From Styela clava (Eukaryota): DNA of 64,000 nt. Below, piece after piece: positions 27,001 through 30,000 of this stretch (positions within the stretch are counted from its first letter, which is position 1; every line of letters starts with the position of its first letter). Location: assembly GCF_964204865.1 (NCBI RefSeq), contig NC_135257.1, forward strand, positions 8,742,001-8,806,000, given 5' to 3'. Position numbers: made by a program.

Positions 27001-30000
27001 CCTCTTGGTGTGATCTATACCTATAGCAATTCGTTGATCTGTGTGTAAAAGGCATATGATTTAAATAGTGTGAAGCAAAGTTAAGTTGAAATTCGTCAAG
27101 AAAAATACCTGAAAATGCGAGTGAATACAATAATTTTTTTAAGTTTATTAAATCCCGTTTCTACCTCCGTTCTTTTCCATGTTAACATTTGGCAATGTTT
27201 ATTTACATTACACGGTTTGTTAATAAATGGGAAATACGTTCTACTTGGTTACGCTGAAAATTAGGATGTTTTGTCCCAAATGATTAGAACCCTCTATTCC
27301 ACATATGTGTTAATTTTCCAACATATGTGGTACGACACCGATTCACAAACAACATCATATAAAATGCTTAGCAGGAATTTAATTTAAAAAGTGAACCTCT
27401 GTAAAGGTTGTTCATACATATTCTTTTGTGACCAAATTTTAAGCTGACTCAATTTTGACGTGTTCGAGTCATGACTTAAAAAGAGCTTCACAACATGTGG
27501 TGCAATTTTCTCTACAATAAAATTCACTAATAGTAATGTTAAATAAATAATATCAAATACCGGTACATGCAAATGGCTCCGACTTGGCGAGATTCTACAA
27601 AACAAACCCATGCATATGTTTTAGAGGCAAAATCGTGTCATTGTTATTGATTTGTGAATATCGTATATTGATATAATATATTTCAAAGCCATTTGAGTTG
27701 GTCCAGCTTGTGTAGTAGTCTATAAAAATCCCTACATGAGAAATACTATATTCGGATTGGAGAATGCCTCTCATTAGCAATAATAGACTACTATCATTTG
27801 AGCTAACAAAAGTTAGTTAAATTCTATCATTAGGCTCTTATTCTATATGATAAAGTAATCAATATATAATTGTAAATTCCGGTTAAACAGGGATACATTC
27901 ACATAGTGCGAGATGGTATATCAATGCATTCGTGATAGACATTTACTATTAATAATACTCGGTCATTTTATAATTTCATGCTCGGCTGTTACACATTCCA
28001 GCTGACCTTTCGGTTTAAAATTCTAGTCAGAAATAAAAAAAATTCGTAGTTTTGTGAATTTCGATTCAATATGATATAATCCAGATTCTAGTTTAGTTAC
28101 AAGCCCTCGCGAAAAATAAATTTTATTTTTTGAAAATTTTAATTTACTAGTTAAATTTGTTATTTTTGCTGTAATTGATCAAGTCATGATCAAGATCACG
28201 ACGGAAAGCAATTAATGCATTAATATGACCATATATTGATGTGAATGTTATATGTCAACAATTCAATATGGTTTTAACTCTTAGCCATCCACGTTATCAT
28301 GATATTAACACTTCGTTATTTGCGCATAGACGTGACATTACTTATTTTATCAAAACCAACTGAGTTCAGTTCACAATATACATTTGGTTTCAAGCCAAGA
28401 TCACAGAAGGCTGTCGCACAGTTGATGGCAGTCTTCAAACATAAGTTTTATTCGGAAATTACACATTACGTCATACGTGTATTTTAACAAGATAATACCA
28501 TTTATTAAATGATAAAGGGGAGGTCCAGCTTTAAATTAGTTATTGCACTTTTGTATCTTCTGCTAAATAACCGGCTTCCATTCGCCACAAAGTTCTGGTT
28601 TATGGCCAATACTGTACAAACGCGCCTTGTGGATACCACCAGTATTACCGAAGACGACAATAAAGCAAACAAGGTATTATTTTGTGTAACCGCTCAGACA
28701 GCCACCCTCTCCTCCGCTCTCAATATCGACAGCGGAGCGATCTTCAACGATTACCACGGCAGTATGCTGCACGGCGATAACCGAATTTCACGCTCAGAGA
28801 GGGTGGAAACAACGCATCAACGCGGTTGCGAAACCGTCAAGTCATAGACGTCACGGTCAAGATACACACTATAGAAATGATCCCTAAAAGTATGATCTTA
28901 GCCACTCCAAATAAAAATATATTAGAGTACTGTCCTTTTATGCTCCTATTTGTGGTAAAAAAATATATTAAATCTTCAACTTGTTATCACACAAGCGCTA
29001 AAGTTATGAGAATAGCCGTTTTGATGGCATTAAAAAAATAAATTGTTCTTGTCAGTTGATTATTTTACCCACAACTTCATGACGATAATTAGGTAAATTG
29101 ATATTTTGTCAATGAGAAAAGAGGAAACGCTGGAATTCAAGAACATTCTGTAAATGCCCGACCGTAATATCTTACCAAATGTTCTCATTTTACTGTTACT
29201 ATAACGGATTTGTACATATTATATTGATGTCATATTATAATATAAAATGCCAAATCTGACTAAAAGTTTACTTTCGTGGAATGATTTAATATTGGAATTA
29301 CGTTATCATGCCAATAATTCCAAGTATTGCATTTCATGAAAAGTGAAATAATGGAGTTTGTAGGTGTTTTAATTTGATCCAGCAGGGCATAATGAAACAT
29401 ATATGGATCATAGGTGGATTAATACTCATGGACGTAATTTATGTAGGGCCCAGGCTTGGCAATAATCGTTTCAAAGTGGGATTGTTGTGAAATAAATTTA
29501 TAGCAACAATAATGACGTTTTGAAGCGTCGGGTATATTAATAGTGCTTCTAGCACGTAAACGTGAACCTCATAGAAATGTACTTTCCGTAGGAAGAAAAT
29601 GCATCTGAAAAATACCGGATAAATATCCGGGTTATATGTATATATAATAGATATTCTTAAATCTCGTTTAGGCTAGTGAAAAAAATAATGACGAAAAAAT
29701 ATAAAAAAGAATATAGGAAGAATAGATTTTGTTGTTATATTTCACACGTATATATTGGCATCATAATTTAATGGCGCGTTTTCGAGTATACAACGTTGTA
29801 ATATTAGCGATCCTCGATGACTTCTGAATATAAATAAAGTAATGCTAAACATTGCTAATGCCCACATTATTGATTAATTAGACTTGACCAGATACAGTGG
29901 CCATGAGAAAAAGTTTCAGTTTCAAAAAGCGTGCATCCAATTATTTTAAATATCCATATGAGTTCTATAAAAATCTATGCCTTAAATATACGAATTTAAT

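What the first reader, a model, noticed from the sequence alone, without database searches (positions are those of the whole stretch)
28689..28960. Complete U3 snoRNA gene hidden antisense in the largest P-Rex intron
Seen: all U3 boxes and stems on the minus strand, plus a PSE-like element. Known: animal U3 is transcribed independently from an snRNA-type promoter rather than processed from introns, and is highly expressed. Inference: a strong transcription unit facing P-Rex elongation between the PH and DEP exons could cause interference or truncated DH-PH transcripts. The 112-aa plus-strand ORF here is only its shadow.
Basis: partly seen in the sequence, partly recalled or inferred. Interest (0 to 1): 0.65.

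Follow-up and report, generated by a model that had tools for sequence, protein, structure and literature searches.

The report
Tunicate U3 snoRNA gene inside P-Rex intron
This is a genuine, full-length copy of the housekeeping U3 small nucleolar RNA gene, sitting on the opposite strand inside an intron of a sea-squirt P-Rex gene, which is an ordinary arrangement for this kind of gene.

Summary
Rfam's U3 model (RF00012) matches window 28689-28899 on the minus strand end to end: 130.1 bits against a gathering score of 34, E 8.7e-29, the only gathering-level RNA hit in 64 kb. Boxes A'/A, C', B, C and D and the terminal stem are all present. The window is from a tunicate: a neighbouring ORF is 100% identical to a Styela clava protein. 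It is not human. The host is a complete plus-strand P-Rex gene (21714-45266). The overlapping 112-aa ORF has no family and is not part of the P-Rex model. Not supported: the 'PSE-like element' does not match the vertebrate PSE consensus, no 3' box is found, and the TATA-like stretch is weak evidence in this AT-rich intron. No tunicate promoter reference was available. An internal TTTT and no T-run for 333 nt downstream argue against Pol III. There are no retrocopy marks. Interference with P-Rex is untested, and antisense nesting of snRNA-type genes has precedents (RNU4ATAC in CLASP1; C. elegans). Ordinary; low interest.

The parts
28689..28899 (-). U3 snoRNA gene, 211 nt, full length
   Evidence: RF00012 130.1 bits, E 8.7e-29, model 1-219/219; fold z -4.17; GC 0.50 vs 0.316 in the intron
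28869..28892 (-). 5' domain boxes A' (28888-28892) and A (28869-28884), which pair with pre-18S rRNA
   Evidence: Motif positions; identical to the Rfam consensus letters, posterior '*'. The role is from established knowledge (PMC5832005 introduction, passage)
28814..28819 (-). Box C' (UGAUGC; last base differs from consensus UGAUGA)
28787..28795 (-). Box B (GAGCGUGAA)
   Evidence: left as an internal loop opposite box C in the MFE
28738..28746 (-). Box C (UGAAGAUCG; fourth base A where the consensus has U)
28689..28699 (-). Box D (CUGA, 28694-28697) and the 3' half of the terminal stem (28689-28693), which pairs with 28822-28826
28900..28960 (-). 61 nt upstream flank, a presumed but unverified promoter; TAATATAT at -25..-18 (28917-28924)
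   Evidence: Sequence; no vertebrate-type PSE; a bare TATA occurs in 20.5% of 21-nt windows of this intron; no strict TATAWAW in -35..-15
26833..30009 (+). Host intron (GT..AG, 3177 nt), the largest in the P-Rex gene
   Evidence: Splice sites and reading phase read; exon map from tblastn of P0121
26679..26832 (+). Upstream P-Rex exon (C-terminal part of the PH domain)
   Evidence: Best PDB matches are P-Rex1 PH chains, E 6.8e-19; Pfam SOS1_NGEF_PH, below cut-off
30010..30149 (+).
   Evidence: 100% identical to P0121 residues 372-417; acceptor AG at 30008-30009
28509..28847 (+). 112-aa stop-to-stop ORF, non-coding shadow of the GC-rich U3
   Evidence: No Pfam family; no P0121 HSP here
21714..45266 (+). 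Whole P-Rex host gene
   Evidence: P0121 (1815 aa, named P-Rex2-like isoform X2) maps collinearly in 39 HSPs

Best explanation
Window 28689-28899 (minus strand) is a bona fide U3 small nucleolar RNA gene of a tunicate, most likely Styela clava. It most likely works as U3 does everywhere. The RNA is made as its own short transcription unit from the 5' flank, not cut out of the host intron, because it lies on the strand opposite the host. It is then packaged through its B/C and C'/D K-turn motifs into the U3 snoRNP, and its 5' boxes A'/A and hinges pair with the pre-rRNA to direct early 18S processing. Lying in the largest P-Rex intron is most likely incidental: large introns are roomy, neutral places for small autonomous genes. 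Shown here: U3 homology, completeness, structure, strand, intron position, and the absence of retrocopy marks. Inferred: that it is expressed, that RNA polymerase II makes it, and that it has no special relation to P-Rex.
For: Full-length RF00012 hit, 130.1 bits vs gathering 34, E 8.7e-29. The 5' 42 nt match the consensus with maximal posterior, and all boxes are present. By my count 4 of 63 model pairs are non-standard. MFE z = -4.17, 0 of 200 shuffles as stable. A sharply bounded GC island, 0.50 vs 0.316. It is on the opposite strand to the host gene, so it cannot be a host-processed intronic snoRNA. Against a retrocopy: no A-run of 6 or more in the 100 nt after the 3' end; no flanking direct repeat of 14 nt or more; the longest k-mer shared by the 60-nt flanks is 6, the commonest value in the controls (203 of 500 controls at 6, 100 of 500 at 7 or more). 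Against Pol III: TTTT inside the RNA at nt 11-14, and no run of 4 or more T for 333 nt downstream. U3 genes are routinely found by homology in tunicates (3 loci in Didemnum vexillum; PMC8704543, passage). Autonomous snRNA-type genes nested in introns are known (PMC12703291 and PMC1474057, passages).
Against: No promoter element could be verified. There is no vertebrate-type PSE within 3 mismatches upstream, no vertebrate 3' box anywhere in the window (0 matches, 1.25 expected), no octamer within 400 nt upstream, and the TATA-like stretch is weak evidence in this AT-rich intron. Box C reads UGAAGA and box C' reads UGAUGC. Each differs from RF00012 at a position the consensus prints in capitals, so a reduced-function or dead copy is not excluded. 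Expression, copy number and orthologous loci could not be examined.
Confidence: 0.78

Rival explanations
1. It is an inactive U3 copy: a recent DNA-level duplicate or retrocopy that landed in the intron and still looks intact but is not transcribed or does not assemble into a snoRNP.
For: No recognisable PSE or 3' box. Substitutions at conserved positions of box C and box C'. U3 is usually multi-copy (3 loci in D. vexillum, PMC8704543, passage; multi-copy in fungi, PMC5832005, passage), so one copy can decay.
Against: Full length with only 4 of 63 non-standard pairs. The K-turn cores (tandem G.A, U.U, flanking Watson-Crick pairs) are intact by the structure line and the fold. No A-tail, no target-site duplication above background. 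The motifs that failed are vertebrate consensuses that need not apply to tunicates. Natural functional U3 K-turns deviate from the canonical loop sequence (yeast C'/D; PMC5499572, passage).
Confidence: 0.15
2. It is an active U3 gene transcribed by RNA polymerase III from a TATA-containing snRNA-type promoter, as is known for plant U3 (recalled knowledge).
For: TAATATAT at -25..-18. This exact 8-mer occurs in only 0.3% of 21-nt windows of the intron, but it was chosen after seeing it.
Against: An internal TTTT at nt 11-14 would be a Pol III stop signal, and there is no run of 4 or more T within 333 nt after the 3' end. A bare TATA is present in 20.5% of comparable windows. Animal U3 is a Pol II product with a trimethylguanosine cap (recalled; the TMG cap is stated in PMC5832005, passage).
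Confidence: 0.04
3. The nesting is functional: U3 transcription head-on to P-Rex elongation attenuates P-Rex or produces truncated DH-PH transcripts.
For: Only the geometry: opposite strands, with the U3 1856 nt after the donor and 1110 nt before the acceptor. The idea of mutual inhibition between intronic ncRNA units and their hosts was raised for C. elegans (PMC1474057, discussion passage).
Against: No data here bear on it. The same paper reports intronic ncRNA loci with their own promoter motifs expressed about 55-fold above their hosts, with no obvious correlation to host expression (r = -0.17 and -0.12). Essential human genes tolerate the same arrangement (RNU4ATAC opposite CLASP1 intron 2; PMC12703291, passage).
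Confidence: 0.03

Closest known systems
U3 snoRNA (Rfam RF00012), animal type
   Same: Full-length covariance-model match; boxes A', A, C', B, C, D in the canonical order; 5' hairpin, hinge and a 3' domain closed by a terminal stem.
   Different: One substitution each in box C (UGAAGA) and box C' (UGAUGC). Shorter internal hairpins than the consensus (211 nt against 219 model positions, several deletions).
Human RNU4ATAC opposite intron 2 of CLASP1
   Same: A small autonomous snRNA-type gene on the strand opposite a host intron (PMC12703291, passage).
   Different: Different RNA (minor-spliceosome U4atac), different host, a vertebrate; no relation between the loci is claimed.
C. elegans intronic ncRNA loci with their own upstream motifs (UM1/UM2)
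   Same: snRNA- and snoRNA-class genes inside host introns but expressed independently of the host (PMC1474057, abstract and passages).
   Different: There the promoter motifs are defined and shared among loci. Here no lineage-specific motif is available, so independence rests on strand alone.
Intron-encoded box C/D snoRNAs processed from the host pre-mRNA
   Same: Located in an intron of a protein-coding gene.
   Different: Those lie on the host's strand and depend on host transcription and splicing (PMC11028025, passage). This one is antisense, so that route is excluded.
U3 loci annotated in other tunicate genomes (Didemnum vexillum, 3 loci)
   Same: Found by the same kind of homology search in the same subphylum (PMC8704543, passage).
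   Different: I could not see their sequences, flanks or host genes. The supplements are closed, so they may list U3 loci for S. clava too.

Membership tests
U3 snoRNA (RF00012) | Covariance-model score at or above the curated gathering score, over the full model | tested here: met
   130.1 bits vs 34, model 1-219/219, E 8.7e-29
U3 snoRNA (RF00012) | 5' domain with boxes A' and A | tested here: met
   A' nt 8-12 and A nt 16-31, identical to the consensus letters
U3 snoRNA (RF00012) | C'/D motif closed by a terminal stem | tested here: met
   UGAUGC (nt 81-86) and CUGA (nt 203-206); stem 74-78 with 207-211. The last base of C' deviates from the consensus
U3 snoRNA (RF00012) | U3-specific B/C motif able to form a K-turn | tested here: inconclusive
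   Boxes B and C are present and face each other as an internal loop flanked by pairs 107-109/161-163. Box C has A where the consensus has a capital U. Protein binding is not testable here
U3 snoRNA (RF00012) | Hinge regions complementary to the 5' ETS, and box A/A' complementary to 18S of the same species | not testable with these tools
   No rDNA in the window (one search found no rRNA); no eukaryotic genome collection on hand
U3 snoRNA (RF00012) | Expressed, TMG-capped, nucleolar RNA | not testable with these tools
   No expression data available
Vertebrate-type Pol II snRNA gene (PSE plus 3' box) | PSE consensus around -55 | tested here: not met
   No match within 3 mismatches in 28900-29000; 9 matches in the window vs 8.37 expected, none near the locus. 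The motif is recalled, and the lineage's own PSE is unknown (searches found no paper)
Vertebrate-type Pol II snRNA gene (PSE plus 3' box) | 3' box 9-19 nt after the mature end | tested here: not met
   0 exact matches in the window; motif recalled
Pol III snRNA-type gene | T-run terminator just after the RNA, and none inside it | tested here: not met
   TTTT at nt 11-14; first downstream run of 4 or more T at +334
Host-processed intronic snoRNA | Same strand as the host gene | tested here: not met
   U3 on minus, P-Rex on plus
snRNA/U3 retropseudogene | Truncation, A-rich tail or flanking target-site duplication | tested here: not met
   Full length; no A-run; no repeats above background
P-Rex (host gene) | DH-PH-DEP-DEP-PDZ-PDZ architecture and best matches to P-Rex1/2 | tested here: met
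   Tested exon by exon. Pfam RhoGEF, PH and DEP hits in 6 of 19 P-Rex-span ORFs, 2 of them above the curated cut-offs, plus DEP for exon 30976-31077. 3 of 3 exons sent to the PDB hit P-Rex1/2 first. The named P-Rex2-like protein P0121, with precomputed RhoGEF, PH, DEP and PDZ domains, maps collinearly

The most novel reading that the evidence does not exclude
The antisense U3 unit is a conserved resident of this P-Rex intron in ascidians, and its strong head-on transcription gates P-Rex output, for example by favouring prematurely ended DH-PH-only transcripts. That would link a ribosome-biogenesis gene to a Rac-GEF signalling gene. A milder version: the locus shows that tunicate snRNA-type promoters have diverged beyond recognition from the vertebrate PSE and 3'-box pattern, and it could seed their definition.
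Probability: 0.03. Interest if true: 0.45.

Novelty: already known. Interest (0 to 1): 0.12.

Why it matters
It matters little beyond correct annotation. It adds a U3 locus to the gene map of this tunicate region, warns that the 112-aa ORF should not be called a protein, and corrects the local P-Rex exon map by adding a DEP1 exon at 30010-30149. If the nesting proved conserved and P-Rex isoforms ended at the U3, it would be a tidy natural case of transcriptional interference, but nothing here points that way. The one mildly useful lead is that vertebrate promoter and 3'-end consensuses fail at this locus. A genome-wide alignment of tunicate snRNA and U3 flanks could define the lineage's own elements, and my two literature searches found no such description.

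Tried and rejected
(1) I suspected plus-strand ORF 28278-28487 might be a missed DEP1 exon right next to the U3. It has no PDB match at E up to 1 and no P0121 HSP, so I rejected it; the real exon is at 30010-30149. (2) A second U3 or partial copies in the window: none. The blastn hits other than the gene itself are a 26-nt match of the gene to its own opposite strand (a hairpin stem) and chance matches of 21 nt or less at E 0.45 or worse. There was no second hit in the permissive Rfam scan of 20000-46000. (3) A structured 3' extension or processing hairpin in 28540-28688: z = -0.80, 36 of 200 shuffles fold as well. (4) Octamer motif in the 400 nt upstream: none. (5) tRNA genes in the window: 0. 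(6) Transposon context or long repeats around the U3 in 26900-31300: only short AT-rich matches of 14-28 nt at 69-93% identity, none bracketing the gene. (7) Literature on a tunicate or ascidian PSE: 0 papers. A search for U3 + Ciona + promoter gave 3 papers, none about tunicate U3 promoters judging by their titles and abstracts. The Marz and Stadler 2009 U3 survey is cited by others but is not in the library. Exons were searched one at a time, and an annotated database protein was mapped back onto the window instead.

Full report
**What is there.** A gathering-threshold scan of the whole 64-kb window against Rfam 15 returns a single hit: U3 snoRNA (RF00012) at 28689-28899 on the minus strand. 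It scores 130.1 bits against a gathering score of 34 (E 8.7e-29), covers model positions 1-219 of 219 and is not truncated. A more permissive scan of 20000-46000 finds no second U3. The other 8 rows are all far below their gathering scores: 7 microRNA-family matches on one inverted repeat at about 34.3-34.5 kb, and one chance match at 23654-23726.

**Anatomy of the RNA.** The 211-nt RNA has these boxes:
- box A' at nt 8-12
- box A at nt 16-31
- box C' (UGAUGC) at nt 81-86
- box B (GAGCGUGAA) at nt 105-113
- box C (UGAAGAUCG) at nt 154-162
- box D (CUGA) at nt 203-206
- a terminal stem, nt 74-78 paired with 207-211

By my count of the printed alignment, 4 of 63 model pairs are non-standard. The unconstrained MFE fold reproduces the U3 architecture: -82.4 kcal/mol, z = -4.17, 0 of 200 shuffles as stable. 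In that fold, boxes B and C face each other across an internal loop flanked by pairs 107-109/161-163.

Two deviations deserve a flag: box C has A where the consensus has a capital U, and box C' ends in C instead of A. By my reading of the structure line, the tandem G.A pairs, the U.U pair and the flanking Watson-Crick pairs of both K-turns are intact. The box C change then falls in the bulge before the G.A pairs; that placement is inference. The general K-turn description, and the fact that a natural yeast U3 K-turn departs from the canonical loop sequence at a cost in Snu13 affinity, come from passages of PMC5499572.

**Organism.** The window is 34% GC with no N. An uninterrupted 587-codon frame at 7623-9386 (minus) is 100% identical to a UniRef entry named TTC39C-like from Styela clava. 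The next named hits are other ascidians at 52-54%. The window is therefore tunicate. Nothing in it was taken for human.

**Host gene.** Exons were searched one at a time.
- Pfam gives RhoGEF, PH or DEP for 6 of 19 ORFs submitted from the P-Rex span, 2 of them above the curated cut-offs. It also gives DEP for exon 30976-31077.
- 3 of 3 exons sent to the PDB sequence search hit P-Rex1/P-Rex2 chains first, at E 7e-19 to 5e-22.
- A single-exon search for longer proteins returned P0121. It is 1815 aa, named P-Rex2-like isoform X2, and 98% identical to that exon.
- Mapping P0121 back with tblastn gives 40 HSPs: 39 collinear ones from 21714 to 45266 on the plus strand, and one DEP1/DEP2 cross-match.

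**The intron.** No HSP lies between 26877 and 30011. Reading the junctions gives a donor GT at 26833-26834 and an acceptor AG at 30008-30009, with the reading phase preserved. The intron is 26833-30009 (3177 nt), the largest in the gene; the next largest gap is 1246 nt. The U3 lies 1856 nt after the donor and 1110 nt before the acceptor, on the opposite strand.

**The shadow ORF.** All 3 plus-strand ORFs overlapping the U3 (28509-28847, 28690-28887, 28781-29041) have no Pfam family, and none is part of the P0121 map. They stay open because the U3 is a 50% GC island in a 32% GC intron.

**How it is probably expressed.** Because it is antisense to the host, it cannot be released from the host pre-mRNA the way ordinary intronic snoRNAs are (PMC11028025, passage). 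It must be its own unit, as U3 genes generally are (PMC5832005, introduction passage).

I could not verify a promoter:
- The vertebrate PSE consensus (recalled) has no match within 3 mismatches upstream of the gene. The window's 9 matches equal chance, 8.37 expected.
- The vertebrate 3' box (recalled) has 0 matches in the window.
- There is no octamer within 400 nt upstream.
- TAATATAT sits at -25..-18, but no strict TATAWAW is present, and a bare TATA occurs in 20.5% of comparable 21-nt windows of this intron.

No paper on a tunicate or ascidian PSE was found. These negatives therefore show only that the vertebrate patterns do not carry over, not that the gene lacks a promoter. An internal TTTT at nt 11-14 and the absence of any run of 4 or more T for 333 nt downstream argue against Pol III.

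**Active gene or dead copy?**

For activity:
- It is full length with conserved structure and a sharp compositional boundary.
- There is no A-tail.
- No direct repeats bracket it.
- The longest k-mer shared by its flanks is 6, and 303 of 500 control placements had 6 or more.

Against:
- The two box substitutions.
- The lack of any verified promoter.

U3 is normally multi-copy: 3 loci in the tunicate Didemnum vexillum (PMC8704543, passage) and multi-copy in fungi (PMC5832005, passage). One copy could therefore be decaying. I put an active gene at about 0.78 and an inactive copy at about 0.15.

**The interference idea.** Nothing in the sequence tests it, and precedents make the arrangement ordinary. 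Human RNU4ATAC lies on the strand opposite intron 2 of CLASP1 (PMC12703291, passages). In C. elegans, 77 of the 127 ncRNAs analysed have intronic loci. Of the 76 ncRNA-host pairs tabulated, the 43 with their own upstream motifs are expressed about 55-fold above their hosts, with no obvious correlation to host expression (r = -0.17 and -0.12). The authors already discuss mutual inhibition as a possibility (PMC1474057, abstract and passages).

As a side note, CpG observed/expected is 1.02 across P-Rex but 0.39-0.52 across the two genes to its left. From recalled knowledge of mosaic gene-body methylation in ascidians, that pattern suggests P-Rex is not a broadly and highly transcribed gene, which would lessen any conflict. 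This is inference only.

**Verdict.** This is a real, complete U3 gene, correctly spotted and correctly placed antisense in the largest P-Rex intron, with a wrong intron size and an unsupported PSE call. It is a textbook RNA family, found by a routine scan, in an arrangement with precedents. The S. clava genome paper states that snRNAs were predicted with Infernal (PMC7540406, passage). I could not check whether this locus is in any public annotation.

**What stayed unchecked.** Genome copy number, orthologous introns and expression remain unchecked.

Noticed in passing
They shorten the U3-bearing intron to 26833-30009.
   Followed up: yes
window 34307-34485, related fragments at 14334-14402: A long imperfect palindrome (arms about 82% complementary) inside a P-Rex intron. 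It gives only sub-threshold microRNA-family hits (best 40.8 bits against a gathering score of 100), and related pieces lie 20 kb upstream. It looks like a MITE-type repeat, not a miRNA.
   Followed up: partly
window 51808-53943 (+): An uninterrupted 711-codon frame with DUF4371 and the hAT C-terminal dimerisation domain, GC 0.44 against 0.34 for the window. It is a possibly intact hAT-type transposase.
   Followed up: partly
window 11744-13003 (+): A 419-codon frame with a reverse-transcriptase domain (RVT_1, E 9e-26), probably a non-LTR retrotransposon fragment.
   Followed up: no
window 7623-9386 (-): The TTC39C-like gene is a single uninterrupted frame (Iml2-TPR_39, E 2e-101), 100% identical to a Styela clava entry. 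It is apparently intronless across the coding region, unlike its intron-rich neighbour P-Rex.
   Followed up: partly
window 423-4888 vs 21714-45266: CpG observed/expected is 0.39 over the left-hand gene (one exon has a UCH ubiquitin-hydrolase domain) and 0.52 over TTC39C, but 1.02 over P-Rex and 1.15 in the U3 intron. This is a mosaic pattern, as expected from gene-body methylation of some genes only.
   Followed up: no
window 28738-28746 and 28814-28819 (-): U3 box C reads UGAAGA and box C' reads UGAUGC, each one base away from the strongly conserved UGAUGA. It is unknown whether this is a tunicate trait or specific to this copy.
   Followed up: partly
window 28550-28649: The 100 nt just beyond the U3 3' end are 0.42-0.46 GC against an intron mean of 0.32. 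There is no Rfam hit and no significant fold (z -0.8). Unexplained.
   Followed up: partly
PMC5832005, abstract: The abstract of this fungal U3 paper says U3 is transcribed by polymerase III, which conflicts with the usual account for fungi and animals (recalled). I did not rely on it.
   Followed up: no
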